Numbered from the stretch's first letter, positions 1 to 60,691 are shown. The stretch is DNA of 64,000 nucleotides from Camelus dromedarius (GCF_036321535.1 NC_087436.1:13392001-13456000), one strand, 5' to 3'. The notes: generated from the sequence alone by a model not told the origin. Program-made: numbers and translations.

Positions 1-960
1 CCAAAAGTTGTGGGATGGAAATTAAGAAGGGCTTTGTGGATAAGATACTGCCTGAGGCAGAGCTTGAAGAACAGAGAGAATTTCAATGATCTGTGTATCT
101 GCCCGTGTCAAGACAGACTGGTTGAGATCTGTAGGATGTGTTTGGAGAATGATGAGCAGTTTAATTTGCTCAGTGTCAGAAAAGCTGAGAGGCATATGCA
201 CAGAACCCAGGATGGAATCAGAACATCTGATGGTTTTTGAGCAAGCAGGTGGCATGATCAGAATGTGATCACATGATGAATATGCTGACAAAAGCACAGA
301 AAATGGGCTGGAATAGAAAGCTGAAGGGGCAGGAACAGTTGGAAGGTGTCCTCATGACCTGGGCAAGACTGGTTGAAGGAACTGGGCAAGGGAGCACTGA
401 TTGCACAATAGTGCAGAATTAGACTTGATAGGACTCCAAGTGAGTTGGTCATTTATTGACTGTGGGGGCCAATAAATGAGGAGGAGTTGGAGAGGACACC
501 AAGGTTTTGAACTTGAGTGCTTGGAGGACATAGAGCTATTTACAGGTACAAGGACATTAAAGGAAGAACCTGGTTTGTGTCAAGATGATTTCTTTTTGAA
601 CATGTTGAATTAAAGATGCTTGAGGACATCCAAGTGAAATCCCCTAGCTGCTGGTTGGAACCATGGGATCAGAGGTTGGGAAAGGAGATATGGGTAAAGG
701 GGCAGAAATGTGGTTGTCTTTTTCACAGAGGAGTGATTAATATGCATAAAGTCTGATCATAGAACTTTGGTTAGAGAAAAACTTACAGAGAAAGAGATGG
801 AAGAATTGGCGATAAAAATCAGAGAGAGGGTTTAATGAGGGAAGCAAATGAGGGAGGAGTACTCAACAACAATGCCAAATGCTGAAAGACATACATGTAA
901 GTAAGAGAGCAGAACAAAGGGCTGGATTTAGCAGTTAGCGAGACAACGAAGAAACCTCAA
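1..960 (-). mobile_element. Ancient LINE L2 fragment (donor of the inverted duplication)
   Basis: Motifs such as TTTTTGAACATGTTGAATTAAAGATGCTTGAGGACATCCAAGTGAAAT and GGATTTAGCAGTTAG resemble the antisense strand of the L2 consensus. Confidence 0.7.
21..772. repeat. Left arm of ~750-bp inverted duplication (L2-derived sequence)
   Basis: Manual alignment to the reverse complement of 2361-3106: identical over 107-205 and 225-493, two indels of ~9-12 bp, scattered substitutions elsewhere. The ORF track shows the same 64-aa peptide at 258-452(-) and 2690-2884(+). Confidence 0.97.
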
Positions 961-1535
961 GACGTCGAGAAAATAGACCATCCTGAACCATCAATCGTGG
1001 TCTGTCTTGCTATGTTTAAACAGGAGGCTGTCAGCCTCTGATTAAGAGCATCGATTCTGTTTTCAGACTCAAATCCCTGATCTTTTAAAGAGTTAAAAGC
1101 TCTTGGACAAGCAAGGCAAGCTCCCTTCCTCATATAGGAAGCCTTATATATATAAGACAATTTTATCTTCTTCATCTGTGAAAATGCAGGTTTTGTCCAG
1201 TGATCTAGGTGTTATTATTGATAATGCTCACTGCACTGAATGGGCTGGACACCTGAATGTTCTACTTAGCTCATTACACCTCATAGGTTAAGAAATATTC
1301 TTAGGGAAGAACTATATAACCAAAGGGAGCCCATATGTATTTCTCACAGGTTAAACACATGTTTCATATAATGTGTGCCATCCTCTCATCCCTCTACTTG
1401 CGTTCATTCCCAAACCAAGGATTAAAAAAAAAAGAAGAAAGAAAAAAAAAGCAGAATACAGAGTACAAAGGCAAGAAATTCTAATTCACTGATTAAAAAC
1501 TAGATGACCTTTTAAGGAAGTTATAGGGCTGCATG

Positions 1536-1549
1536 GTTACTATGGAAAC
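1536..1549. promoter_or_regulatory. RFX X-box motif
   Basis: GTTACTATGGAAAC fits the X-box consensus GTYNCYATRGNAAC at every position. Sequence match only; function untested. Confidence 0.45.
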
Positions 1550-2245
1550 AAGCAAAATGCAGACCTATGGAGATGATTCTAACATAACAACTACAAATGA
1601 ACATTTCCAAATACAAGGAGGTGTTCCTTTTCTATTCAAATGTGTGGGAAAGGGCAAATATACTCCAATCATCAGCCAAACCTGGACAATGTGCAATGTA
1701 ACAAATTAGATAAAGATGTTTGACGTTTCTCTTCTATAGTAAACTGAAGTGGTCATAAAATGCAAAATACTTTATCCCAAATGCGCTACAATTTTACAGG
1801 CTTAAGGCAAGGAGGAGAATGGAGTCTATTTCCTTCTCATTCTTGTTTAATTTTTTTTAATGACTAAAGGGCTAGTGAGAGTACAGGCTGACTCTGGTAT
1901 ATTTCTGGTGGGGTGAGGGCAGGGTTAAGAGTTCAGCCATTTTATTTTGCTTCTTAAGTAATTCTTATATCGTGTTTTTGCTGTTGCAGAGTGTGCACAA
2001 CTTTAATGTTTGTAAAACGCTGGTAGGGAACTGATCTCGCAGGAAGATATTTTGAAGTCAGGAGGAGACAGAAGGCTTGCCAGGCACGAGGCTTTCTGAT
2101 CTGTAAAATCATACTTTGAAACAGATGGGCTTATCATGTGCTATATGCTGGGTTTAAGCCATGTTGGGGTGTATAAATGAGGGTTAGCTGACCATCACAA
2201 ATCACACAGACAAGTGAAATATTAAGAAAGAAGAAAGCATTATAA

Positions 2246-3200
2246 CAGGTTCCTCAGCCTCAGAAATACTGACATTTAAGCCTGGTAAAAAGAAAGAGGT
2301 TATCCTGTGCTTAGTAAGGTGTTTAGCAGCATCCTTGGCTTCTATTCACTAATCATTTCCAACCAAAGTTCTATGATCAGACTTTATCCACATTAATCAC
2401 TCCTCTGTGAAAAAGACAACCACATTTCTGCCCCTTTACCCATATCTCCGTTTCCAATCCCTGATCCCATGGTTCAAACCAGCAGCTAGGGGATTTCACT
2501 TGAATGTCCTCAAGCATCTTTAATTCAACATGTTCAAAAAGAAATCATCTTGACACAAACCAGCTTCTCCCTTTAACGTCCTTGTACCTGTGAAACCTGT
2601 GAATAGCTCTATGACTTCCAAGTCCTCAGGTTCAAAACCTTGGTGTCTTCTCCAACTCCTCCTCATTTATTGGCCCCCACAGTCAATAAATGACCAACTC
2701 ACTTGGAGTCCTATCAAGTCTAATTCTGCACTATTGTGCAATCAGTGCTCCCTTGCCCAGTTCCTTCAACCAGTCTTGCCCAGGTCATGAGGACACCTTC
2801 CAACTGTTCCTGCCCCTTCAGCTTTCTATTCCAGCCCATTTTCTGTGCTTTTGTCAGCATATTCATCATGTGATCACATTCTGATCATGCCACCTGCTTG
2901 CTCAAAAACCATCAGATATTCCTGATTCTGTGCATATGCCTCTCAGCTTTTCTGACACTGAGCAAATTAAACTGCTCATCATTCTCCAAACACATCCTAC
3001 AGATCTCAACCAGTCTGTCTTGACTCGGGAAGACACACAGACCATTGAAATTCTCTCTATTCTTCAAACTCTGCCTCAATACCTCATCCACAAAGCCTTT
3101 CTTAAATCCCCTCCATCATGAGAACCACAATGCCTCTAAGCATTGCTGAGCGAAGAGGGCGGGGTGGGGGGAGACTTGCTCCTGGCTTAAGAACCATTGA
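2246..3200 (-). mobile_element. MER20 (hAT-Charlie) split into two collinear halves (~2246-2353 and ~3107-3200) by the inverted duplicate
   Basis: CAGGTTCCTCAGCCTCAG...TCCTGTGCTTAGTAAGGTGTTTAGCAGCATCCTTGGCTTCTATTCACTA matches the first part of the reverse-complemented MER20 consensus; CATGAGAACCACAATGCCTCTAAGCATTGC...TTGCTCCTGGCTTAAGAACCATTG matches the rest, including the terminus. Confidence 0.8.
2361..3106. repeat. Right arm of ~750-bp inverted duplication
   Basis: Reverse complement of 21-772; 2649-2917 is perfectly complementary to 225-493. Confidence 0.97.
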
Positions 3201-3849
3201 ATATAGAAATAGGCTCACAGATGATCACTTGAAATCTTCCTTTTATAAAGATATTTTGCAAAAAATAATCACTTCTGTATTTTTTACGAAAGAAGTTGGG
3301 GAATTCAAATTTCTCAATATTTGTCATATTGGCGAAAGGATTCCTGTGTTTAGTCACCAAATCAAAGCAATAATCCTGGCATGTTTGCCATTCCCAACAT
3401 CGTCAAGAGATTCATACATACAATTCCACAACAAAACCCAGATGTTTCTTTACATTTTGAAATACCTTTTGTCACATTGGATGTCTGTTATCAAAGGAAC
3501 CTAAATTCTACACCCAAGATTTGAACTGTGGGTCAAGAGTCAGGGGACAAGGATTATAAAAATGAATCTTATTAAGTTTATTTAAGTCTATGGAGTAATT
3601 TTTGAAGAAATAAACTTGCACAATTCTTTCCAAAGATGGCACAAAGTCATTAATTAGATTATCATCGTATATTTTTATTTCTTGACTTGATGACTTTAGA
3701 TGTGGTTGGGATTCACAAAAACTATGGATGATTGACACTTCTTCCCTTTCTGTCTTGTAGTAATCATCTTTTGGGTTCATTCACAAAAACAAAAAATTAA
3801 TCAAACATAGAAAGCAGGAGAATTTGTAGAAGAAACCATTAGACTTATT

Positions 3850-3950: not shown

Positions 3951-6900
3951 TATTTTTTTTAAATCCAAGACACTGCATAGAAAATATTGGGTAAGGTAAG
4001 AATTCTTGAAACCATGTTTTCCATTCTGATACTCTTATATTCAGATTTGCCTAGGCTTTGTAGAGGCACTGTGTTCTGTTTCAGACAGGAGAGCAAAAAT
4101 CTCTCTGTGGAAATCTTGGGTCATGTAGTGTCTGTCTTTTATCATAGCACAGCAGAACACCTTTTCTTCCACTATGACAAGCCTATGAGTTGGTTATTCT
4201 GAAGAGAAAAAGAGGATTTAGTGTAGAAAAAGGGAAATCTCAAACTTCTGGCCTGGGGAGTTGGGGAAAGAAGGTATGAGATGATTAGTTTACTTAAAAT
4301 CCTTCCATTTCCCCAAGAAACTTCATTTCTGGTTTTGTTGTTATTGTTAAAACAAGAAAGAAAAAAAAAAGGAAGAGGTGATCTCCCAAATCAGAAAAAC
4401 TAGAAGATTCAATCAAGGCTACTTCTTTTCAAGGTGGTAAGATTTGGCACATTGTGCTAGTACCCTTATAAGTCCCTAGAATATGGCCATGTCCCAACCT
4501 GGATCCATAATATCACTTTGGCCATAATTTTGGCCAAAACCATCAATGGCTCTCTTTCTTTACAATGAAATGATTTCATGCAATTAAAATAGTTTATTAT
4601 TCAAACTTCCTCTCCTTGAAATCAGACCAGCTGATTGGAGAAAAACCTCTGCTGATAGGAATGAAAATGCATCCCAAGCTACGAAAGGAGAAAGCTGTGG
4701 TCTTCACCACATGACTTTGTCCAAACTGAAGTTTTTATTTCCCCATACAAGGATTTCTTATATACTTTAAAGTAAGGTCTTTGTGTGGAGCAGGCTCACT
4801 GATGAGTCCCGAAAGTAAAGGAACCCAAACAGGCAAAGATTCTTTACTAGGTGGGGTGGATTCACAAAGGTGGAGTGGATTCACAGACCCTGCCTTAAGG
4901 TTTTTTGCAGAGGTTTTGGGAAACTTCTTAGGACTATGACAGAATCTTACTCTTTCCACTTTTTGTCCCCCGCCCCCACCCGACCAGCTGTCCCACAGCT
5001 TTCAAAACATCCTGATAATTTTTTATGTAGTACTACATATTTTTATTAGGATCTTTCAGTGTATTAGGATTTGTTTAGAGCTCTTGGGTTTTCAGTGTTT
5101 TGGTTGGGACTTCACTTTTATGAGGTGTTAGGGCCGAAGAGGGGGTATGTTTTGTTTTTATTTTGATTGCCACACGCTCTTCTAACCCTTCCCCGGTGTT
5201 GACCCCTCTAAAAAGATGATAATCTCATTTCCTGCTTTGCAAGAGAAATACTTACCAGGTCAAGAATTGTAATCAGGTTTAGACAGTTATTTTAGCCTTC
5301 CTTTTTCATCCCACTGACATTAAACCAAGATGAATCAAAATATGTGTTCCACGCATTTTTTGCAAATATTCTTGAAATAGGCACATGGGTTCAGTTCTGT
5401 TCTGGAATGGTCTGTTCCAAAGAATCGCAGCGTTCTGATCCTCCTTCATTGTTAGCATTGTGTTTCTAGCAAGTACACCAAAGAAACCTTTCCACTGGAC
5501 ACAACCTTAAAAAACTAAATTTCACCTGAAAGTAGATGACCTGAATAAGGAACATTAAATGTTTTTCCTTCCAAGACCCATGGAAGAAGAAAGCTATGAA
5601 GCTCAAATATATTTTTTAAAATTTCAAAACCACTTGCTTACAGATCCAAAGTGGGAATCTAGTTTCTTTTCTCACTCTGAAACTGGTGAAAAGGACCAAT
5701 TTAATTGTGTAATCTGCTACCCTACTCTTGTGATTGAATCTGAACCAGTATGACATATAAGAAGTCTCAAAGGAGAACAGAACAGTAGTTTTCTTTATGC
5801 TGGGAACACCTGTTAAGAGGTTATAGTTGGGTTTATATACAGCAAGTAGAACGCCAGTCTTCTCTCCCTCCGTGTAAAAAAAAAAAAAAAGCCTCATTAA
5901 AACATATTCTTTGCCAAAGTTTCATTGCTCAAAAGAGTCTAGGTAACTTTTTCAACCCACAGGAACTCTACAAATCGTGCTTTCAAACTCTGCAAAAGTG
6001 TTCTTGTAAATTCTGAGCTTAAATATATTGCCCATCATTTTCTAGGCTAATGTGGTTTCTGGATTCATATCTATTTAGTGACAATAGTGATTCAATAAGT
6101 TATTCCCTAATTAGCCAGCACTTTACATACATATTCTGCTACCACTCTACATATTTATCTCCTAAGTGTAACTAAGAGGTTAGCATAACATACGTTCAGG
6201 AAAGTCGACAGGTAACCAGATCATTTAAAACAGAATGAAGATATCACATACTCCACCACAGGAAACTTCCCGCCAACATGGAAGACAGAGTCAACACAGA
6301 GGAAACCTCCATTCTACTCCAAACACCTAGACGTGCTGGAAAAAAATAATAACAATAATAACAAAAGAAAATGAGGCTGAGTGTGCAAACAGGAAAGAGA
6401 AATTTCCATATAACGGAAAAAAAAGAGAGAACTCAAAACCAGAGTGATGAGCTGAAAGCAAATGACCACACACGATCAGTTTCAGATCTGGGTTCGAGGG
6501 CTGAGGTCTGGGTTTAACATACAAAATACAAGGACTCAGTCCCAAGAAAAATGGAAGGATTGAACTGTGCCTTCCAAATAAAGCTGGGGGCATAAAGGGC
6601 TGCCCTGTATAAGCACAAGATAAGGAATGAAACACCTCTGCCCACCTTCCTGGGCTGGCATCAAGGTCTTAACTCCAGGCCATGCTCAGGAGTGCAGTCT
6701 AAATTCTACTCCCAAGAGCCACAGAAATCCAAGAGTGACACATTAACCTAAACAGTAGGCTGAAACACTGAAGTCGGTTGGGTCCTCACTCACACCAACT
6801 CCAAGCCACTCAACAGGGAAACAATGACCCAGGGGACATGAGGCTCCCAAGGCAACCTCTGTGGCAGGTCAGTGAACAACAAAGTCTGACCAGTCATACT

Positions 6901-23104: not shown

Positions 23105-23266
23105 TTTACATTTTTACTTTTTACTTTGATTTGAATTTTGTTGAAGGAGGGGTAGGTAATTAGGTCTACTTATTTTATTTTTTAATGGAGGTACCGGGGT
23201 TTGAACCCAGGACCTTGCACATGCTAAGCATGTGCTCTACCACTGAGTTAGCTAAACCCTCTCCCA
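23105..23266 (-). mobile_element. Camelid Vic-1-type tRNA-derived SINE
   Basis: Antisense tRNA-like head (TCAGTGGTAGAGCACATGCTTAGCATGTGCAAGGTCCTGGGTTCAAACCCCGGTACCTCC) plus ACCTAATTACCT tail; degenerate TSD AGACA(C/T)TTTTT. Confidence 0.85.
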
Positions 23267-25445: not shown

Positions 25446-25580
25446 TTTAAGGGGCTTTTTTGGAGGGGGGGAGGTAATTAGGTTTACTTTTATTTTTTTT
25501 AGAGGAGGTACTAGGGATTGAACCCAAGACCTCGTGCATGCAAAGCATGCACTCTAGCACTTTGAGCTACACCCTCCCCC
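25446..25580 (-). mobile_element. Vic-1-type SINE with perfect 15-bp TSD
   Basis: TSD AGAAAGCGTATAATA at 25431-25445 and 25581-25595; antisense GGGGAGGGTGTAGCTCAAAGTGCTAGAGTGCATGC...GGTTCAATCCC. Confidence 0.9.
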
Positions 25581-29883: not shown

Positions 29884-31498
29884 GGTCTCATTTGCAAAAA
29901 TTTTTTCCCATTCAGTAGGTTCTCGTTTTGTTTTACTTACGGTTTCCTTCACTTTGCAGAAGCTTGAAAGTTTAATTAGGTCCCACTTGTTTATTCTTGC
30001 TTTTATTTCTATTGCTTGGGTAGACTGCCCTAGGAGAGCATTTTTGAGATGTTTGTCAGATAATGTTTTGCCTTATTTTCTTCTAGGAGGTTTACTGTAT
30101 CTTGTCTTATGTTTAAGTCTTTGATCCATTTTGAGTTGATTTTTGTGTATGGTGTAAGGGAGTGTTCTAGCTTCATTGCTTTACATGCAGCTGTCCAGTT
30201 TTCCCAACACCATTTGCTGAAGAGACTGTCTTTATTCCATTGTATATTCTTCCCTCCTTTGTCGAACATTAGTTGACCAAAAGTCTATGGGTTCATTTCT
30301 GGGCTCTCTATTCTGTTCCATTGGTCTATATGTCTGTTTTTGTACCAGTACCATGCTGTCTTGATGACTGTAGCTCTATAGTATTGTCTGAAGTCTGGGA
30401 GAGTTATTCCTCCAGCCTCTTTCTTTTTCTTCAGTAATGCTTTGGCAAGTCTAGGTCTTTTGTGGTTCCATGTAAATTTTATCTCCAGAATATATAAGCA
30501 GCTCATATGACTTAATAAGAAAAAAACAAACAACCCAATCCAAAAATGGGCAGAAGACCTAAACAAGCAATTCTCCAAGGAAGACATACAGATGATCAAT
30601 AGGCACATGAAAAAATGCTCAATATCACTAATTATCAGAGAAATGCAAATCAAAACTACAATGAAGTATCACCTCACACCAGTCAGAAGGGCCATCATTC
30701 AAAAGTCCACAAATGACAGATGCTGGAAAGGCTGTGGAGAAAGGGGAACCCTCCTTCACTGCTGGTGGGGATGCAGTTTGGTGCAGCCACTGTGGAAAAC
30801 AGTATGGAGATTCCTCAAAAGACTAGGAATAGACTTACTGTATGACCCAGGAATCCCGCTCCTGAGCATATATCCAGAAGGAACCCTACTTCAAAAAGAC
30901 ACCTGCACCCCAATGTTCATAGCAGCACTATTTACAATAGCCAAGGCATGGAGACAGCCTAAATGTCCATCAACAGATGACTGGATAAAGAAGAGGTGGT
31001 ATATTTATACAATGGAATACTATTCAGCCATAAAAACTGACCACATAATGCCATTTGCAGCAACATGGATGCTCCTGGAGAATGTCATTCTAAGTGAAGT
31101 AAGCCAGAAACAGAAAGAAAAATACCATATGAGGTCGCTCATATGCGGAATCTTAAAACAAAAACAAAACAAAACAAACAAACAAACAAAAAACCATAAA
31201 TACAAAACAGAAACAGATTCATAGACATAGAATACAAACTTTGCCAGGGGGATGTGGGGTGGGAAGGGACAGACTAGGGTTTCAAAATGTAGAACAGATA
31301 AACAGAATTGTACTATGTAGCACAGGGGAATATATACAGGATCTTGTGATAGCTCACAGCAAAAAAAAAAAAAATGTGACAATGAATGTATGTATGTTCA
31401 TGTATAACTGAAAAATTGTGCTCTACACTGGAATTTGACACATTGTAAAATGAGTATAACTCAATAAAAAATGTTAAACTTTAAAAAAAGAAAAAAGA
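29884..31498 (+). mobile_element. L1 with 5' inversion (29884-~30478 antisense; ~30479-31498 sense), 14-bp TSD
   Basis: Minus-strand ORF2 peptides [13 protein letters not shown]...[26 protein letters not shown] and [24 protein letters not shown]; plus-strand ORF 30592-31224 with the ORF2 CCHC motif ([18 protein letters not shown]). TSD AAGAAAGAGGGGGC (29870-29883) / AAGAAAAAGGGGGC (31499-31512). Confidence 0.93.
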
Positions 31499-34400
31499 AA
31501 GAAAAAGGGGGCAATTTCTTTCTAATCACATACCTCTAAACTTTCACAGCTTTAAAAATACTTAATCATATTCTCCAATTTTGACTTGTTCATTTTCTCT
31601 CTCTGGGAAAGATTTTAATGGTAGGGTTACCAGAACCCTCTTCTCCATAACAGCTTCTTCTACCAATTTCTCACTGAAAAATTCTAGATTGAAAATCTGC
31701 AGCAACTCCTGCCCAGAAAGGAATAAAGCTCTGGAAACTTTCAAACTCATAGCTTGATGGTATAACACACAAATAATCATCACGTACTGATAAGGGAGAA
31801 CTGCCTTCAGTCGAGAAATTGTAGTAGTGTAAAGTATAATAATAGATCATAACTGGAGAATGGAGGTCACATTTGGAGCCTTTCTTCCTGGAACTGCTAC
31901 ACTGGGGAGCAAGCATCTTGCTCTGCAGGAGTATCTGGGACTCGGTAAGCATCCGTTCCGGTACACTAGTCGTGACTAGACATTGTTCTATGTCCAGCGG
32001 TAGAAAACAATCAGGGTGGATCTGAAGGAACTCAGACAAGAGAAGCAAGAGAAGCGGCCTCACTCTGCTTCCCTTCACCAGCTCTCTGCATGTGACTGTT
32101 ATTGGGGGAAGCTAAAACAATTTTTCCTGGCAAAATCTCATATTTTCTTAGCCTAACAACAATGATCTCATTATTACCGACCCATCATCAGAAGGGGAAA
32201 GCCCACTTCGAACTGTTGTTTCCAACAGTGGCGGTGGATTTGCACAGAGCCATCCATATTCCCCTGGGCTCGCTTGTGACCAGTGGTGGAGAAAGGGCAC
32301 TGGCTCTGGCCGAAGAACAGGTCGGAAGGGGCGTCACATCCACAGTCCCAACAGCACATGCTACCACTGGCCTCCCGGAGGTCTCCGAGAACTGAGCACA
32401 GGACAACAGTAACAAGAACAGCTCATCAAGAGAGACAAGGACCTGGGGAGTTGAACACGAATGAATAGGCACTTAAGATAAAGAATAATACAGTATGCTT
32501 CTAGAGAAAAGCATGAAAATTAAATGAATGTATTATAAAATATTAAAAAAAAAAAAACCTATCCTAGTTCTGTGGATGGTGTGGTCTTCGTTTTAAAAAA
32601 AATAAGTCAAGAATTAAAGTAATATCTAGCAATTTCAAGTAAAATATACACACACACATTCCCAAAATGCCCTTGCCACAGCTAACGGCAGATAGGAAAC
32701 TCTTCCAATTACTTACCTAATAAGGAGTCTAAACTCTAACTTTTTAAACTAAACAGAGATTTGTGTGTGTATGTGTGTGAGTGTGTGAGCACGTGCACTC
32801 TAATGTTGGTTTTTCAAACAAAAAAGTCTTTGGTTACTAGTTTTCGAATGGCCTCGGCTCTCTGCTTGGTTATCTCAGCCTTGCATTGATGGAAGGGAAC
32901 TTGGAGGTTATCCCCGTCAACCTCTTCAGTTTAGAAGGAAAAGACCTGGATGGCTGTGCACTTTGATGAGGGAGGACCAAGAGGTGAGCACCTGACATCA
33001 AGCCAGCGCTCACTGAGCTCTTCAGGCCAACTCTGCTGATTTCACAGCTTAATTATCTAACAAAAGAGAGTGAGCAGTAGAGAGAAAAAGGTGTCCATCC
33101 CTGTGACTTGACCACTAGGGGAACGTCACTGTATCCTCTTACAGTTTTGGAGTCTAAGATCCAAGGCAGATCCATCTGTGCCCAAGCAGCCTGAAGTAGA
33201 GACTAGGAGGCAGTTTATTTGAGCACCTTGAGCAGCCTTGAAATAGACACTGAAAGTGTTTGCTTTAGAAACCATGTCTTGGTAAGTTGAGATTTGAGTA
33301 ACGGCTGGGGACCTGTTATCCTTCAAGCCAGCCAGTTCCTTCAGTGCTTCTGAGAGCAATGCCTGTTCAGAGAGGACAACCAGGCAAAGGCACTCGTTAC
33401 CCAGAGGCCTTTGCTCTAAACCCCATGATCGTTCTTCTATTTATGTCAAGGCTAGAGGGAGGGCGGGGCCTCTGGTCCCCAGCCCACATGGAAGGCTCGT
33501 CTCCATCCTATCACTCTGATGACAAGCAAAGGTCAGTGAAGGAAATGTGCTGAGGGTAATGAAGGGAAAGCGAGAGTTGCTTTACAGAGCCTAGAGCTGG
33601 TCTGACGTCCTCTCAAGGGCAGGACAAGCTAGCTAAGAAGGACAAGTCCAAGAGGAGACCACTGCAAGTCCAGACCTTGAACTCATTCTCCAATTAACAC
33701 CAAAGCACCACAGCCTTGTACTGTGGGCCACGTGATATCCTTGACCTTGATCCATTTTGATCAGAACTCCTTCCCTTGGATGGACACGGGAGAAGGAAAA
33801 GAAAACACAAAACCTGGTACTTGCACCAAAATCAAACCCCCCATTCCTCTGTGTGCAGCGTAGACACATCGCAAATGAGACCAGACCTAAATAGAAGCCT
33901 CCACGGCAGATGTCCAGCACCACCTCTCCCCTGATTTGGGTCAGTAGAAATGATCCCTCCACCGCCCGCAGATAGCCATTTGCCTGTGCTCGGGCACAGA
34001 GGAGGAACCCACCATCACTCCAAAAATATATTAAAATCCTACACTCGGCCTGGGACTTTTAAACTTCCTTCCAGTTCCCTGAGCATCAGCCATAGTAAAT
34101 GGGAAAGACATGTAATCTAAACCACTGAGGACAAAAGCCCCAAAAGTTCTGACTCCTCCCCTTGGATCACCATCCCTTACTTACTGTTAGGTGTCTCTGG
34201 TTAGCGTTAGTGCGTCGGGCTGCCTCCCTCCCAGTGGGGTTCAAGCTATCTTGATACCACGATGGACTAAACACTGAGCAATAACCCACAGAGCATGCCG
34301 CCTAGTCCAGAAAGGCACGTGGCTGGGTTCTGTCCTCCCCTCTCCCATAAGCCCACCCTTACTTGCTGAAAGCTCTTTCCATTCAGGGGAAACCTTCTGA

Positions 34401-38063: not shown

Positions 38064-38562
38064 ATAAACATCTTTTAAAAAAGGAAAAATTGGCTTTATG
38101 AATGAACTGAACAAAGATATTAACACATTAGATATAAAATTGGTTATTCAAAAATCCCATGTGAATGAGCATGCCATCCACCTCCCCATTTTCCAGGGTC
38201 TGTTAGCACCGTCATGCCCTTGTGGACACAGACGTTGCCCCAGGGTGCTCCCAGGGATCAGTGCGATGTGAGAGGCCGGAGCAAAAGCCAAGGAGACTCA
38301 CTGATTTCACACAACATCTCAAGGGACAGAGGTTCACTAATGACAGGAGGAAAGTGAGCACAAGCGAAGCGATCCCTGTAAAATCTTCTCCAATGGGGCT
38401 GGGCGACGGGGCTGGGAAGGCCCAGACACTGACTGGGTAACTGACCGATCCAGGATGTCAGCTGCTGGCTGGGTTCCAGGTGGAATGTTGGGGTTTTCCC
38501 CTGGGGCTTGTTGTGGCCGGTGATCCACAGTAACTGGGCAGAGTCCTGGGTGGGTCAGTGCC

Positions 38563-39188
38563 CTGGAGGGGCTGCCGTCCTCTGTGGAGCTTGGCTTTGG
38601 GCAGATCCTTAGGACTCTGAGTGCGGTCCTGGTGTTGCTGCTGCCCAATGGCCTGTGTTCTCAGCTCATGTTCCAGAGCCTCCACTGGGAGACAGCGTTG
38701 AGGTCTGTCCTCACCTTGTTGGTGGGTGTGTTATTTACTTGCAGACTTGTTCAATCCGTTAGAAGTCAACTTAATGGAAGACATGAAAAGCAACTGGCAA
38801 AAACACTGGCTGCACAGACTGAGGAGAAATGCCACCTCATTGACAAGCTTTGTGGGCTAAAAAGGAGTGCGCCAGGATGGAGACAACTGTAAGGAACGCC
38901 AGGCTGGAGGAGGAGCCAGTAAACATACCCAGCCTCGCTGACACTTACAGGAAGTTGACGATGGTCAACCTGAGCTTGAGGAAGGAAATCAATTTTCTTG
39001 TCTAAGAACTGAAGAGAGAGAGATCCCTGCAGTCTATATGAGAAGAGATGGCGGAGATGTTAACAGTGCTTAAGTTTCTGGAAGAGGTCATGAGAATCAG
39101 CACATCACAAGGGGCTTTTACAAACCAGCTAGGGGACCAAGCACCGAGTCCTGATGGTCCCTTTCCCAGGAGTGGGCCCTTGTGTTAA
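38563..39188 (+). pseudogene. Intronless, disabled cTAGE-family (MIA2/cTAGE5-related) copy
   Basis: Translation (L)EGLPSSVELGFGQILRTLSAVLVLLLPNG...LHWETALRSVLTLLVGVLFTCRLVQSVRSQLNGRHEKQLAKTLAAQTEEKCHLIDKLC/AKKECARMETTVRNARLEEEPVNIPSLADTYRKLTMVNLSLRKEINFLV*ELKRERSLQSI*EEMAEMLTVLKFLEE aligns collinearly with the recalled cTAGE5 N-terminus (LPEG..FPWE..TM..RSVRSRL..REKKLA..EEKSKL..KE..SLE..KL..ELKEEKS..ELMA). CTG stands where ATG is expected (38563); -1 frameshift at ~38854; stops at 39003 and 39039; no introns. Confidence 0.85.
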
Positions 39189-39777
39189 AGCTGTGCTGTC
39201 CCCTCCCCTCCACTCAGGCCTCCCAAACTGCCCGGCTGCACTCACTCACTCAGTCAGATCTCCACCTGAGCTGCACTGAGGCCAGTGGTTGGAGGGCAAT
39301 CCCCTCCTTTGGACCAGAGTTCCTCCAACTTTACCAGTGAGCACAGCAGTGAACTCCTTCAGGGTCAACATCTCTCAAGTAAAATATATTGGAATTCCCA
39401 GAACATACCATGAAGCATGGGACATTTTTATATTCAGCAAATGTTTGGATTATCTCTTATTAGTTGTGAAAGAAATGTTGTAATTGAAACTGATCTTCTA
39501 CTTAGTTTGAATCTATATTAAACCTCATTTCTCAAGACAGTTTGGGTAACTATTATATACCAGCAATGTAAGTGAAGTTATATATATGTAGTTATTCTGT
39601 GTACAAATATTGCATTATAATTTGAAAATGTATGCAGTTTATCAGTATAAACTTTTAGATGGCCATAGCATTTATTTCTAGAGTTTAATTCTGAAGTCAT
39701 GAGTTTAACTCTGAATTCGTAAGTTTAAGTCAAAGAGCCTTTTTTCACCTGAGTATGTATAGTTTTTAAAAAATAGA

Positions 39778-40140
39778 TGAAAAAAAAAGAAAAGAAAAAG
39801 ACAAAATGAACATAAGTACAAAAAAGAAACAGACTCATAGGCAGAGAATACAAACTTGTGGTTGCCAGTGGGGAGGGAGGTGGGAAGGGACAGATTGTGA
39901 GTTCGAGATTTGTAGATACTGACAGGCATATGTCGAATAGATAAACAAGATTATACTGTATAGCACAGGGAAATATATACAAGATCTTGTGGTAGCTCAC
40001 AGTGAAAAAGAATGTGACAATGAATATATGTATGTTCATGTATCACTGCAAAATTGTGCTCTACACTGGAAATTGACACAACAGTGTAAACTGATTATAC
40101 CTCAATAAAATAAAATTTTTAAAAAATTAAATAAATAAAT
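39778..40140 (+). mobile_element. L1 3' fragment inserted downstream of the cTAGE-like CDS
   Basis: AGAAACAGACTCATAGGCAGAGAATACAAACTTGTGGTTGCC...ACCTCAATAAAATAAA; degenerate TSD AAATAGAT(G/A)AA. Confidence 0.9.
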
Positions 40141-42670: not shown

Positions 42671-44449
42671 CAAGCATACGTGTGTACAGACAGAACGAGA
42701 AAGAGATTATATTCCACCAAATGCATAACCTTTACAAGACAATAACACTTAAGATTCTTAATCTCTACTTGGAGGATGTGTTTGTTGATGGAGAAGACAC
42801 AGAGAGAGATGCTAGAGAAAGTCAGGCATCAAGTAATAAGCACGTCCAACCCTTATGATCCCTCCTCAAGTCAGCTACCTTGTTCATTGGTGCTCGAAAG
42901 GCTCTAACATCAAGGAGAAATAAAGAAAGATAGAATGTAGAAGTGGCCGATGCTGGGACCAGTCAAGACCAGAATCTCTCAAAACGTGATCATTTCCACA
43001 AGCTCCAATATGAGAATCGATTTCTGCGGTCAGAAGCATTTCGAACCTCTCTAGCTGAACTCCATTCTTTTCCTCACACAGACTCCCCAGCATCCCGGCA
43101 CTCGGCTGGGGGGGCGGGGGCGGGGCGGGGGGGGGCAAGTCTGTGTCTGCCACTCCCAGGCCCTGGGCACTGCGCTTGGTCCCAGTTGGTGGCATCTCTT
43201 CTCACCTTACTTTGTATTCATCCTTCTTCCCTGGTAAAGCGCTTTACTTCTCACCTCTGACTATTTTTAAATACACATTATTGAGCACCTACCATCATCA
43301 GTTCCTACATTAGACGCTGTTGCAGAGACATAAAGATACAGCATTTTAAGGAGCTGACAGTCTACTGAGAGCAGTAAATAAGTAAAGAATGACTATGGTG
43401 CAAGACAGAAAAAAAGTGCAAGCAGAGAATGACAGGAAAATAAATGACTTACGCCTACTGGGTTAATCTGAGCTTATCTTGGGTGGTGATCAGCCAGTAC
43501 GTGACTGATCAAGAGGATTTCACCTGGACAAGGCGTGAAGGGCACCCTAGACAGGAAACAGCATCAGCACTTTGCACGTAAAGTGCCAAGAAATGGCCAA
43601 GAGTCCAGGGAGAGTGGTAAACGGTGAAATAAATGGATAAATGTAGATGAGGAGATTCGGGACAGAAGAGGGAGATGCTGTGCTCAGGATGCTCTGCTCA
43701 AGAGATGTGGAGCCACTGAGAGATTTTGAGGCCAACGATTCAGGGCAGCAGAGGGAAGGAGGGTGTGAGGGGGTCTCCCAGGGAACAGAGCTGGATGGCT
43801 GACAGTACTTGCGGGGCGAGAGCCGACCAGTCCTAAACTAGGTCAGGAGCAATGAGCGGGATGGAAACGAGAATGGAGTAATGAGACTGGATGACTGGCA
43901 AGCTGTGAAAGACAGAGGGTGACCAGATAAAGGGTGCCTATAAGTAAGAATATTTGGGTGAATGATGTCCAATTCTGTTATGGGCATATTGAATTTGAGC
44001 TAAGAGCATCCTTTAAAAACTGCCCAACGACTAGTCGAAGTGTTGGAATTCATCTTCATGGAGATGGTGTTTGAAGTTAGTCGGGTGAAATCAGAGGAGA
44101 AGCAGGCTGGACTTGTTCCCTGTTGTTGGATTACAAGTAACCAGCATAATTTCTAGGAGCAGTAAACAAGTAAAGAATTACTATAGTGCAAGACAGAAAA
44201 AGTGCAACCAGAGAATGACAGGAAAATAAATGACTTATTCCTACATAATTCCTAGTGTGTATTCAGTACCCATTAAATATTTGTTTAATAAACAAATACA
44301 ATCTAGAAGGAAGAATTAAGCAGAGAATGAATATGGAGGAAGGTCTATATTTAGAAGATATGCCCAAAAAAAGGAGGGGGAAATTAATAAGAAATACAAG
44401 GAGATCACAACATCTCAGAAACCAGGGAAAGAGCAAACCTTAAAAAGCA

Positions 44450-44778: not shown

Positions 44779-44925
44779 GGGGGAGGCTATAGCTCAAGTG
44801 GTAGAGCGCATGCTTAGCATGCACGAGGTCCTAGGTTCAATCCCCAGTACCACCTCTTAAAAAAGTAAATAAACAAACCTAATTACCTCCCCCAACCCCC
44901 CAAAAAAACTAAAAAAAAAAAAAAT
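44779..44925 (+). mobile_element. Vic-1-type tRNA(Ala)-derived SINE
   Basis: GGGGGAGGCTATAGCTCAAGTGGTAGAGCGCATGCTTAGCATGCACGAGGTCCTAGGTTCAATCCCCAGTACCACC (Pol III A/B boxes) followed by AAACCTAATTACCTCCCCC and poly(A); degenerate TSD AAAATTCA..AA.TGTT. Confidence 0.92.
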
Positions 44926-46220: not shown

Positions 46221-48170
46221 CATACCTCTTTTAATTATATTTAACTTCCAAATAAAGAGAATTTCAAAGGCATGCCTCTACCTAACATGCTGCAACTCTT
46301 GTCTAATCGAAAACACTAACCCTCTCTCCCAAAAGAGGACACAAAGTCCCTTTGTCCACTTTTAGGTGATGCTCGTTCTTCTTCTAGCTGAGTCACACGT
46401 CCCCTTTGATACCCTATCCCTTAACTACTGAGATATAAGATATAAGGTTATACGGTAGGAAAACGGAAGTGGGGTGATGAATTTGTATGTGTTTATATAT
46501 ATATGGAAAAATCCTCACAATATTATAGTCCTTTTCACTGAACTAGTCCTGTGGTCTAAGGTGACATTTATTACTCTCTTCTGCTACTACCTGTTCCCCA
46601 TTCCCTTCACCCTCAGCAGGCACCTTAGCTGCTCATAGTTCTCTGCCTGGTGAGGTGACCCAAAACTTCCTTCCCGGAGGGTCTGGCCTAATGTCATAGT
46701 CGTCCACTGACTTTTATCACCAAACATAAGAGTCCTAAGAGGCTCCCCAGGGAATCATCTGAACTCCAGACGTGTTCTTCCTTACCCCTGTTGTTTACGA
46801 GCTGATCTCAGTGGTCAGAACCAGTCCCCTCACCAGTACAGTATTCCCCCTACCAGTACAGTAATCCCCCTGCCAGTATAGTAGTCCCCCCACACAGTAA
46901 TCCTCCCATACAGAAATCCCCTCAGCAGTATAGTAACCCCCCCACCGGTATAGTAATCCCCCCACCAGTACAGTAGTCCCCTCATACAGTAATCCCCCCA
47001 GAGAGTAACCCCCCACCAGTACAGTAATCCTTATAGTAATTCTTATTGATTCACAGGCATGAGGAGCCCCAGTGGCCAGGTGGCACCTTCACCTTGCAGC
47101 TTAATGGAACCCTCGCTGTATCCCCTCGTGGGACCCTTCTTCCTTTGGGAATTAAGCCTTCTATGCTAGCAGCACCCGAAGTCTCAAGGATGGGAAGCAA
47201 ACATTTTGCTAGCAAAACACCAGGGATAGCAGCAAAAGGAGCCTCTCCCATTTCCACTCCTTGACTTCCTAGACACATGAATCCTGCTTATGGGAGAGAA
47301 AACACCCTGTCTTAGGTGCTGAATTAGAGCATAGTCATCACTTTGAGGACATTCCCGAGGCCAGGCAAGATGTTTCTTCCCAGCTGGCACCACAAGTGAC
47401 TCGTCAAAAGGCCACCATTCTCCCAGCCTGCTGCTTCGGGGAATCAGAGACCTTGGTAAGACCAGCGAAGCACATGAGGGGAGCCCATTGCTGCTTCATC
47501 TGCCATAAAATGAGGGGTTCGGTCAGAAGTAATGCTGCGTGGAGTGCCGAGATGGTGAGTAAGGCATTCTTAAATTCACAGACGGTGATTTGGGCAGAAG
47601 CAGGAAAGGCGAATTTGTATCCAGAGTAAATGTGTATGTTCATAAGAACCAGTGCCGCCCCTTCTCTCATAGACGTGGTCCAGTGTGATCAATCTGCCAA
47701 CAGTGGCAGGCTGATGCCCTGGGGATGGATGCCGCCCTGAAGTCTGGGTGCTGGTCTCCAGTGCTGGCAGGCTGGGGAGTCGGTCCCTGCTGCACGGCCG
47801 TCCACTCTGCTGAGACCACACGTCACCCCGCAGCTGCTGCTTCAGCCACCTTATCCATGAGTTCACTGAACAAGGACAAAGGTGCCCGGCGAAAGAAACA
47901 GACCGAATTCTATAGAACCAACCATCGTATCTACGATAATTGTTTAGATCGTGCTTACTGAGGCAGCTCTTTTTTAAGTATTCCTGTAGGACACAAATAT
48001 ATTTAGGCTCTGCCTGTTTGGGAAAGTCTCCTCACATATCTCTTCCTCAGACCTCCTTGTCACCTGTTTACCCATCACACTCCTTACAAGTACTCAAGAA
48101 TCTAACCAAACCATTAGTTCCGTGAATCAGGACATCTCTTCTTCCAGGTCAAAAGTGCAACCACGTACAG
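46220..48170 (-). mobile_element. ERVL internal remnant: degraded pol (RNase H/integrase) and dUTPase
   Basis: Minus-strand peptides LVLMNIHIYSGYKFAFPA (integrase core, cf. ERVL VLTGIDTYSGYGFAFPA) and IEGLIPKGRRVPRGDTARVPLSCKVKVPPGHWG (ERVL dUTPase, cf. LVPKGG.LPPGDT..IPLNWKLRLPPGHFG). Confidence 0.85.
46826..47040. repeat. Minisatellite, ~12 units of 14-21 bp (consensus CCCCCACCAGTACAGTAAT)
   Basis: Units read directly, e.g. CCCCTCACCAGTACAGTATT, CCCCCTACCAGTACAGTAAT, CCCCCTGCCAGTATAGTAGT, CCCCCCACACAGTAAT. Confidence 0.92.
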
Positions 48171-59180: not shown

Positions 59181-60522
59181 AAATGGATGAATGATTAAAT
59201 GAACCAAGAATTAAAATACAGGAAAATTATAATATTTGATGATACGGAACTTGATCTCCAATATCTCTCAGCTCCTAAATGTCAGTGCTGGAAACAATTA
59301 CATTAATCATTAGGTAATCTGGCCTCAACTTGCTCAGATGCGGAAGGGCACAGCATTCAGTGCCCCCCACTGGGTTCAGCAGGCTGTCCGGAAAGGGCGG
59401 GGCTGAGTACCATGATCACTGTGCCAATGGGGGGACACCAGGGTTGGCTTCAACCTCAGCTCTACCAAAATCAGCCGCCCTGCCTGAGCATCTAGTCCGC
59501 AGAATGTAACTGTTGGCCTGGTGTCTTCCAAAAGCCTTCTCCTCCCTCAAGACACTTGGGGCAGAGAGCTGAGAGATGAAAAGATTTGAGAATCCAGGGA
59601 GGAGTCTGACATCCTGACTTCTGGCAGCTCCCATGCCTTGTTTCCATCCAGCCCGCCTAGCGCTGAATCAGCGATGAGTGCTAGGAAGCCACTCCGCATC
59701 CTTGAAACCTCTCTACCACATGGTTTTCTCAGAGCGCCATGCACACTGTCTCGGTGGCGTACATTTGCATGGGGAATTTTCTGGATGCAATTATCCTTTG
59801 CAACTAATGAAGTCAGATGTAATCACAGATGTACTGTGAGCACTTTGCATCTAGGCTGATACGTGTGTGGCTCTCTGGAATGCCAGATCTCAGAGCTGTT
59901 TACCTCTTCCACCCACATGTTGGTACTGGGGTCGGCACTGCACAGGATGAGAGCCTTCTGGGGCACCACAATCACGCTCTTTGGGGGGCCTGTCTGCCTC
60001 CTGGGGCTCCCTGCTCTTAGCTCCCAGCTGCAGTTTGGACCTTCTCCCGAGCAGCGTACAATAGATCATTCAGCCCAACCAAAGCCCCTGGTCGCCACCC
60101 CGAACCCACAGTCTAGTGACCTGACTCTGAATTCAGTCTGTTCGTCTACCGATTTCAACAAGGAGCAGAGATTTACAGACAGAGCCCTCAATCAAAAATT
60201 TCAGAAAGAACCCACTTAGTCTTGGACAACTTCACATTCTCTACCATAAGCACACATAATTTAAAAAAAAAAAAAAAACAGAAAAACCATACAATAAAGG
60301 TCATATAAAGTCTGGAGGAGGGGAGAGCCTTCCTTGCGAGACCCCGCCTGGTGGGAACTCTGGAGGCACATGAGGACTTACCCTGGGGTACATGGACTCA
60401 TGGAAATTTGAAGAGAATTCACTTCTTGAAACTCAGCTTCCTATATCAGGTTCTTACTGAAAACTGTGCCTGAAGATGTGTGTATTCACTGTATGCAAGC
60501 TATGTCTCAGCATAAAAAAATG

Positions 60523-60691
60523 CCAACTGTTATTTTCTGAACCCTCTTCAACAATTCTTAAAAAGAATTAAACAAGTTTAATTTTTATAAATTATAAATT
60601 ATAACATTATAAATTATAAAATTACACAATTTAAATAAATTTAAAATTTATTTTAAAAATTGATGAACAGGGTTCAGAAAATTACAGCTGG
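60523..60691. repeat. AT-rich palindrome: 41-bp inverted arms around a (TTATAAA)n-like centre
   Basis: 60523-60563 vs reverse complement of 60651-60691: 36/41 identical. Confidence 0.88.

What the first reader, a model, noticed from the sequence alone, without database searches (positions are those of the whole stretch)
21..3200. 750-bp inverted copy of neighbouring L2 DNA pasted into the middle of a MER20 element
Seen: 21-772 and 2361-3106 are inverted copies at roughly 95% identity, far higher than two independent ancient L2 copies would share. The right arm is bracketed by the two collinear halves of one MER20 (~2246-2353 and ~3107-3200), while the left arm runs on into more L2 sequence. 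There is no poly(A) tail, and only a weak flanking duplication (AATCATTTCCA 2351-2361 / AATCCCCTCCA 3105-3115). Inference: the right arm is the derived copy, made by local templated insertion (replication template switch or break repair copying from 1.6 kb away on the opposite strand) rather than by retrotransposition. The split MER20 polarises the event.
Basis: partly seen in the sequence, partly recalled or inferred. Interest (0 to 1): 0.7.

Follow-up and report, generated by a model that had tools for sequence, protein, structure and literature searches.

The report
Inverted repair copy, later partly homogenised
A 745-base piece of old repeat DNA was copied backwards into a dead transposon 1.6 kb away, most likely during break repair, and the two copies later swapped sequence so that their middles are identical again; both steps are known, ordinary kinds of genome change.

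Summary
The inverted pair is real: 22-772 and 2361-3105, 29 substitutions and 4 indels. Both arm versions exist in independent data: 14 of 24 listed runs from 6 studies hold 0.97 of the sampled words, where a fake arm would cost 13%. Two perfect tracts (269 and 99 nt) sit inside flanks about 8% diverged (permutation 1 of 200,000). Best reading: an old repair-mediated duplication (Pace 2009; single-copy Pack-TIR of Tan 2021) into a MER20-like element, roughly 8-19 My ago, then recent gene conversion between the arms (under about 1-2 My). The proposed target-site duplication is not above chance. The labels MER20 and L2 are recalled and only indirectly supported (terminal inverted match, summed length 209 vs 219, purine skew). 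No reads were laid and no outgroup was available, so an assembly origin of the tracts is not excluded. The spacer is in ancestral orientation here. Ordinary class, tidy example; interest low.

The parts
22..772 (-). Left arm, inferred donor; L2-like relic in antisense (label recalled). Similarity may reach to 13 and 775.
   Evidence: weak matches to other old relics in the window (3 of 11 hand-picked intervals with 0 of 200 shuffles)
776..960 (-). Probable continuation of the donor element beyond the copied part
   Evidence: purine share 0.72 and G/(G+C) 0.68 continue the arm's skew and fall to 0.50 and 0.46 after 960; no significant match to 6 candidate relics; L2 reading recalled
225..493 (.). 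Perfect tract 1 in left arm (269 nt, identical to 2649-2917 reversed)
107..205 (.). Perfect tract 2 in left arm (99 nt, identical to 2926-3024 reversed)
206..224 (.). Unlike patch between the tracts (one substitution, 1-nt indel, 12-nt indel; counterpart 2918-2925)
773..2360 (.). Spacer between the arms (about 1.6 kb), single-copy in the window; would flip if the arms crossed over
2246..2360 (.). First half of the interrupted DNA transposon relic (MER20 by recall), 115 nt including a few unassigned junction bases
   Evidence: terminal inverted match with 3182-3199
2361..3105 (+). Right arm, inferred 745-nt insert; carries a 9-nt tandem duplication near 2586-2594 and the shorter form of the patch
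2649..2917 (.). Perfect tract 1 in right arm
2926..3024 (.). Perfect tract 2 in right arm
3105..3114 (.). Ambiguous outer junction: 7 of 10 matches to donor 13-22, possible imperfect microhomology
3106..3199 (.). Second half of the interrupted DNA transposon relic (MER20 by recall), 94 nt

Best explanation
Two events. (1) Inferred: a break in a long-dead MER20-like relic was repaired by copying 745 nt from an L2-like relic 1.6 kb to the left, in inverted orientation, with loss of about 10 nt of the target. The simplest route is that the resected left end, whose 3' overhang is the top strand, folded back and primed on its own strand near 772-775, copied outward to about 22, and rejoined the other end, perhaps through the imperfect 10-nt match at 3105-3114; invasion of the sister chromatid gives the same product. 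Flank divergence (JC 8.4%) dates this to about 8-19 My on two assumed rates. (2) Shown as a pattern, inferred as mechanism: much later (0 differences in 368 nt, upper bound 0.8%, under about 0.8-1.8 My) one arm was used as repair template for the other, a non-crossover gene conversion that made 368 nt identical, either as two tracts stopped by a 12-nt indel or as one tract with one later complex mutation. The spacer has its ancestral orientation in this sequence. No function is implied.
For: Inverted pair and counts. Mosaic: longest difference-free run reached in 1 of 200,000 permutations; P(0 in 269 at 8%) = 2e-10; second run P = 0.014 after removing the first. Both arm versions are in independent data: 14 of 24 listed runs, 6 studies, at 0.97; absence of the right arm would cost 12.8% of words. 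Target looks like one split element. Donor skew continues to 960. No poly(A/T). Class features match Pace 2009 (donor within 5 kb in 824 of 1,136; deletions 1-15 nt; no poly(A) in 39 of 39 proximal cases) and Tan 2021 (median gap 4.6% of the element, 37 MER20 rows). Tract size fits a mean non-allelic conversion tract of 250 bp (Harpak preprint). A block of 99.9% inside 94% inverted duplicates is described in human (Aguado 2014).
Against: No outgroup and no reads were laid, so neither the empty site nor the tracts were seen outside this one sequence. The 0.97 share cannot clear the tracts: an overwritten tract would cost only 1.8-2.6% of words, the same size as the 3% missing in all top runs (also explained by about 4 private SNPs, the A-rich run at 1.8%, or a collapsed patch at 1.2-1.5%). 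MER20 and L2 labels were not confirmed by any library: no second MER20-like copy in the window, Pfam no true hit in 6 frames, no homologue, continuation matched 0 of 6 and 0 of 3 candidate relics. The insert is longer than Pace's human proximal maximum of 619 bp. Conversion slows as copies diverge, so a tract arising at about 8% divergence is less expected. The species and both rates are assumed.
Confidence: 0.72

Rival explanations
1. Same duplication, but the perfect tracts are scars of crossovers: the arms recombine and flip the 1.6-kb spacer, recurrently, with an even number of net flips in this haplotype and the inverted form segregating in living animals.
For: Human inversions arise by recombination between >90% identical inverted repeats from 654 bp up and are often recurrent (Giner-Delgado 2019; Aguado 2014); a 269-nt perfect tract is a ready substrate.
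Against: Both element halves flank the same arm in order, so this sequence is in ancestral orientation; one flip would have moved the first half next to the left arm. Non-crossover conversion needs fewer events. No read evidence of an inverted allele was obtained.
Confidence: 0.12
2. The duplication is real but the identical tracts were made by the assembler or gap filler, which wrote one arm's sequence into the other.
For: All 14 top runs stop at the same 0.97, and an overwritten tract would remove 1.8-2.6% of words.
Against: Copies 8% apart are easy to tell apart by reads, and gaps usually form because a repeat is already identical (own knowledge). The window has no N. A spared 19-nt patch with a 12-nt indel in the middle is odd for a fill. 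Other causes explain the 3% as well.
Confidence: 0.08
3. Two independent ancient L2 insertions (one nested in the MER20), or an RNA-templated insertion, later homogenised end to end by conversion; or the left arm is the derived copy.
For: L2 relics are common in the window (by eye); conversion has acted here at least once.
Against: The right arm has no unconverted remainder: similarity to the donor ends at the element halves on both sides. Other old relics are only 60-70% alike, too far for conversion. No poly(A) or significant target duplication. The donor's skew continues past the arm, the insert's does not beyond the flank.
Confidence: 0.05
4. The identical tracts are kept by selection on a long RNA duplex or a duplicated regulatory element.
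For: If transcribed, the arms would pair over about 750 nt (follows from complementarity).
Against: Selection on pairing tolerates G-U and compensatory change and would not give 269 nt of perfect identity in a decayed repeat. No Rfam family in the region; no Pfam hit above cut-off in 35 of 117 long frames tested across the window.
Confidence: 0.03

Closest known systems
Repair-mediated duplications (Pace, Sen, Batzer, Feschotte 2009, PMC2671141)
   Same: Insertion of nearby chromosomal DNA into an old transposon, donor under 5 kb away, no poly(A), small loss at the target; opposite orientation occurs (ACSBG2 case); also found in cow and dog.
   Different: 745 nt against a human proximal maximum of 619 bp; the captured DNA is itself repeat-derived, and their pipeline removed inserts identified as transposons; the main text has no occurrence of 'conversion' or 'homogeni'.
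Single-copy Pack-TIRs made by gap filling (Tan et al. 2021, PMC8277862)
   Same: TIR element with both ends holding a 100-5,000 bp capture of >90% identity from a near donor, break inside the element, small gap; MER20 is a frequent host (37 of 370 rows).
   Different: They excluded donors with transposons in the flanking 100 bp, which would probably drop this case. None of the 4 alpaca rows is a MER20; 26 of 37 MER20 rows were seen and none is a camelid.
Non-allelic gene conversion between close paralogues (Harpak et al., bioRxiv 10.1101/135152; camelid LTR pairs, PMC8605555)
   Same: Identity tract of a few hundred bases inside diverged copies; mean 250 bp; about 1,800 LTR elements per camelid genome show such tracts.
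   Different: Here the pair is a short non-coding inverted repair copy at about 8% background divergence, above the under-5% range used for their rate estimate.
Inversions mediated by inverted repeats (Aguado 2014 PMC3961182; Giner-Delgado 2019 PMC6748972) and local opposite-orientation duplications (Frith and Khan 2018 PMC5829575)
   Same: Inverted repeats >90% alike and from 654 bp up can flip the spacer; high-identity blocks mark likely breakpoints; non-tandem inverted local duplication is a recurring pattern.
   Different: No inverted allele was shown here; this sequence is in ancestral orientation.

Membership tests
Repair-mediated duplication (Pace 2009) | Insert of at least 50 bp whose donor lies more than 50 bp and under 5 kb away | tested here: met
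   745 nt, about 1.6 kb between arms
Repair-mediated duplication (Pace 2009) | Insert interrupts one transposon whose halves are adjacent in the consensus | tested here: inconclusive
Repair-mediated duplication (Pace 2009) | No poly(A/T) tail | tested here: met
   longest A/T run 3 near both ends
Repair-mediated duplication (Pace 2009) | Junction marks: microhomology, deletion or filler | tested here: inconclusive
   about 10 nt missing by length; 7 of 10 outer match (chance 0.007 unadjusted); 2 of 3 at the inner end; TSD not significant
Repair-mediated duplication (Pace 2009) | Only one other copy in the genome | tested here: inconclusive
   single partner within the 64-kb window; no genome held
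Repair-mediated duplication (Pace 2009) | Empty orthologous site in an outgroup | not testable with these tools
   no mammalian genomes held
Single-copy Pack-TIR (Tan 2021) | Capture 100-5,000 bp, at least 90% identical to parent, length ratio 80-120% | tested here: met
   745 vs 751 nt, 92.5% with gaps
Single-copy Pack-TIR (Tan 2021) | Both terminal ends of the same TIR element present | tested here: inconclusive
   inverted match of the two ends; family label recalled
Single-copy Pack-TIR (Tan 2021) | Parent copy without transposons in its flanking 100 bp (their filter) | tested here: inconclusive
   donor appears to lie inside an L2-like relic (recall), which would fail the filter; so it works like a Pack-TIR but is not filed as one
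Non-allelic gene conversion tract | Run of identity far longer than background divergence allows | tested here: met
   269 nt, 1 of 200,000 permutations; 99 nt, P = 0.014
Non-allelic gene conversion tract | Tract real in the animal's DNA and discordant with orthologues (arms closer to each other than to a sister species) | not tested
   no reads laid, no orthologue; word share cannot decide
L2 (LINE-2) relic | Match to an L2 consensus or L2 reverse transcriptase | tested here: inconclusive
   Pfam and homologue searches blank; only weak DNA matches to other relics; label recalled

The most novel reading that the evidence does not exclude
A chance repair copy has become a self-renewing recombination switch: conversion rebuilt a perfect 269-nt tract in arms already 8% apart, and the arms now flip the 1.6-kb spacer recurrently, with tract borders and orientation polymorphic among living animals. 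More widely, repair copies whose donor is itself repeat DNA are a large uncounted class, filtered out of both published catalogues and misread as nested transposon insertions (an L2 'younger' than MER20); each gives a donor/acceptor pair of known polarity for measuring ectopic conversion at high divergence. A second probable case lies 41 kb away in the same window.
Probability: 0.15. Interest if true: 0.5.

Novelty: new member of a known kind. Interest (0 to 1): 0.27.

Why it matters
As one locus it matters little: both steps are described classes and no gene or function is touched as far as tested. Its use is as a clean worked example. The split element polarises the copy, and the mosaic shows that average identity (95%) would misdate the event by about half. 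It also shows a blind spot: catalogues of repair duplications filter out captures of repeat-derived DNA, and such captures mimic nested insertions used to order transposon ages (inference). If the spacer proves polymorphic, it would show a small repair copy seeding a recurrent inversion.

Tried and rejected
Own-genome search: no genome held. Other copies of the split element or of the arm in the window: none by nhmmer or BLAST except one 54-nt weak match. Tile scan for L2-like relatives: best score 2263 against a null maximum of 2197 in 60 shuffles, marginal; 11 intervals picked afterwards gave 3 with 0 of 200 shuffles, 1 with 1 of 200, 7 weaker; continuation 0 of 6, across-boundary 0 of 3. 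Pfam on 6 frames of the arms: one sub-threshold chance hit. Protein homologue search of residues 105-195 of one frame: 21 candidates, none at E <= 10. Pfam on 35 of 117 long frames of the window: 3 sub-threshold hits, no gene context found. Rfam: nothing in the repeat. Target-site duplication rejected as not above chance. My first figure of 110 nt for the second tract counted indel columns and was corrected to 99 nt. Earlier notes of this scan: nothing by place or words. Paper searches for a report of conversion after templated insertion, or of this camelid case, gave 0, 0 and 4 unrelated or only general listings; the library lacks most subscription journals, and Pace's Table S1 and 11 of Tan's 37 MER20 rows were not read.

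Full report
Observation. Self-comparison of the 64-kb window finds 13-775 against 3114-2358 as its strongest match, 92.5% over 772 columns with gaps; the repeat finder returns the same pair in four ungapped pieces. A local alignment gives 33 substitutions (23 transitions) and 4 indels in 773 columns. The clean core is 22-772 / 2361-3105, with about 1.6 kb between the arms. The next best self-matches of similar length, between younger L1-like ends (label recalled), are 84% or less. Only 12-21 bases lie left of the left arm, so its outer context is unseen.

Is it in the animal? Of 24 runs listed, 14 from 6 studies hold 0.97 of 335 sampled 31-mers of 1-3600; 6 hold 0.05-0.25 and 4 next to none. 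One of the top holders may be the source of the assembly. If the right arm did not exist, 409 of 3,204 distinct words (12.8%) would be missing, so both diverged arm versions exist in independent data.

The differences are not spread evenly. There are exact runs of 269 nt (225-493 / 2649-2917) and 99 nt (107-205 / 2926-3024), separated by a 19-nt patch with one substitution, a 1-nt and a 12-nt indel. The flanks carry 29 substitutions in 363 sites, 8.0% (CI 5.4-11.3%), JC 8.4%; inner and outer flank do not differ significantly (P = 0.16). A run as long as 269 came up in 1 of 200,000 permutations; the 99-nt run has P = 0.014 once the first is removed; runs of 60 and 58 nt in the inner flank were not tested and are within what 8% allows. 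One copying event followed by neutral drift cannot give this. With 5e-9 per site per year (2.5e-8 per generation, five years; PMC8605555, passages) or 2.2e-9 (recalled), the flanks date to 8-19 My and the tracts to under 0.8-1.8 My. The camelid assignment is a recalled guess from the look of the SINEs and L1 ends and comes from no call.

Polarity. The target's family (MER20) and the donor's (L2) are recalled labels; no repeat library was available. Indirect tests: the outer ends at 2246 and 3199 match as an inverted repeat, 10 of 12 columns, reached by 244 of 40,454 window tiles (the ends were chosen from recall); the halves sum to 209 nt against 219 for MER20, a hAT element (Tan 2021 supplement), implying about 10 nt lost. 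The left arm's purine and G skew continues through 776-960 (0.72; 0.4% of 1,210 tiles are as high) and drops after 960, while the right arm shows the mirror skew and 3200-3600 shows none. Against: direct matches of 776-960 to other relics failed in 6 of 6 and 3 of 3 trials; Pfam and the homologue search were blank; there is no second copy of the target element in the window. The balance favours the right arm as the insert.

Junctions. No poly(A/T). The proposed target duplication is 8 of 11, matched by 13% of random pairs in an equal scan. At the outer end 3105-3114 matches donor 13-22 in 7 of 10, more than chance (0.007 unadjusted) and less than the copy's usual identity (0.036), so it may be an imperfect microhomology. 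At the inner end the overlap is 2 of 3 bases.

Mechanism. Step 1 (inferred): break in the dead element, resection, priming on the L2-like relic, synthesis of 745 nt, rejoining with small loss. Fold-back of the left end's 3' top strand onto itself gives exactly this product, as would invasion of the sister; the sequence cannot tell them apart. Fold-back inverted insertions at breaks are reported in yeast but at 5-34 bp (PMC11724301, search listing only). Step 2 (pattern shown, mechanism inferred): a later non-crossover conversion between the arms. Because both element halves still flank one arm in order, the spacer has its ancestral orientation, so there was no net inversion. The direction of conversion is unknown without an outgroup.

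The artefact rival. Simulation shows that overwriting the tracts in one arm would remove only 1.8-2.6% of words, about the 3% absent from all top runs; about four private SNPs (3.1%), the A-rich run at 1422-1450 (1.8%) or collapse of the patch in a k = 31 graph (1.2-1.5%) would do the same. The word share therefore neither supports nor clears it. I put it at 0.08 because copies 8% apart are rarely confused and the spared patch is awkward for a gap fill.

Comparison with what is known. Pace et al. 2009 (PMC2671141; abstract, sections 6, 7, 12 and passages) found 1,136 such inserts in interrupted human transposons, 824 with donors within 5 kb, mean 162 bp, maximum 619 bp, with deletions of 1-15 nt and no poly(A); 202 in cow. 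Tan et al. 2021 (PMC8277862; abstract, sections 8 and 14, passages, 26 of 37 MER20 rows and 4 of 4 alpaca rows of Supplementary Data 1) describe the same product as single-copy Pack-TIRs made by gap filling, median gap 4.6% of the element. Frith and Khan 2018 (PMC5829575; passages and section 22) list opposite-orientation local duplication and conversion as recurring patterns. Harpak et al. (bioRxiv 10.1101/135152; passages) give a mean tract of 250 bp and a rate that falls with divergence. Aguado 2014 and Giner-Delgado 2019 (passages) describe high-identity blocks in inverted repeats and recurrent flipping from repeats of 654 bp up. Camelid LTR pairs often carry conversion tracts (PMC8605555, passages). 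So it works like, and most likely is, a repair-mediated duplication; it differs in being long, repeat-derived (hence probably filtered from both catalogues) and secondarily converted. I found no paper on this locus or on conversion after such insertion in three searches, a weak negative.

Context. No Rfam family in the repeat; the only two hits in the window are tRNA-like heads. No protein family above cut-off in 35 of 117 long frames; short exons would be missed, so whether the pair lies in an intron is unknown.

Verdict. New member of a known kind; interest 0.27. The boldest reading left open, a polymorphic recurrent inversion and an uncounted class of repeat-derived repair copies, has probability about 0.15.

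Noticed in passing
window 43369-43458 and 44157-44244: Second probable repair duplication: direct 90-nt copy at 91%, 0.8 kb from its partner; the right copy is bracketed by an 11-of-12 direct repeat (44145-44156 / 44244-44255) and sits in what looks like an L2 3' tail (label recalled).
   Followed up: partly
window 252-285 (and 2857-2890): A 34-nt imperfect palindrome with a perfect 12-nt core lies inside the 269-nt tract near its edge; could be chance or a break-prone site that started the conversion.
   Followed up: no
window 29892-31500: L1-like element whose 5' part is inverted against its 3' part at about 30480, the usual twin-priming form (by eye; label recalled).
   Followed up: no
window 38100-39780: Looks like a decayed processed pseudogene ending in an A-rich run; recalled resemblance to the cTAGE5/MIA2 family. 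Five frames gave no Pfam hit above cut-off.
   Followed up: partly
window 25503-25576, 44783-44855, and a relative near 23111-23266: tRNA-like heads of a short interspersed repeat (Rfam tRNA hits at 36 and 34 bits; mutual 77-85% matches).
   Followed up: partly
window 46825-47030: Short tandem array of roughly 20-nt units inside an LTR-like stretch (by eye).
   Followed up: no
window about 60520-60690: About 32-nt inverted repeat around a very AT-rich, internally repetitive 100-nt spacer; possibly a miniature DNA transposon (by eye).
   Followed up: no
window 4849-4885: Two 18-nt direct copies 19 nt apart, 94% alike; small tandem duplication.
   Followed up: no
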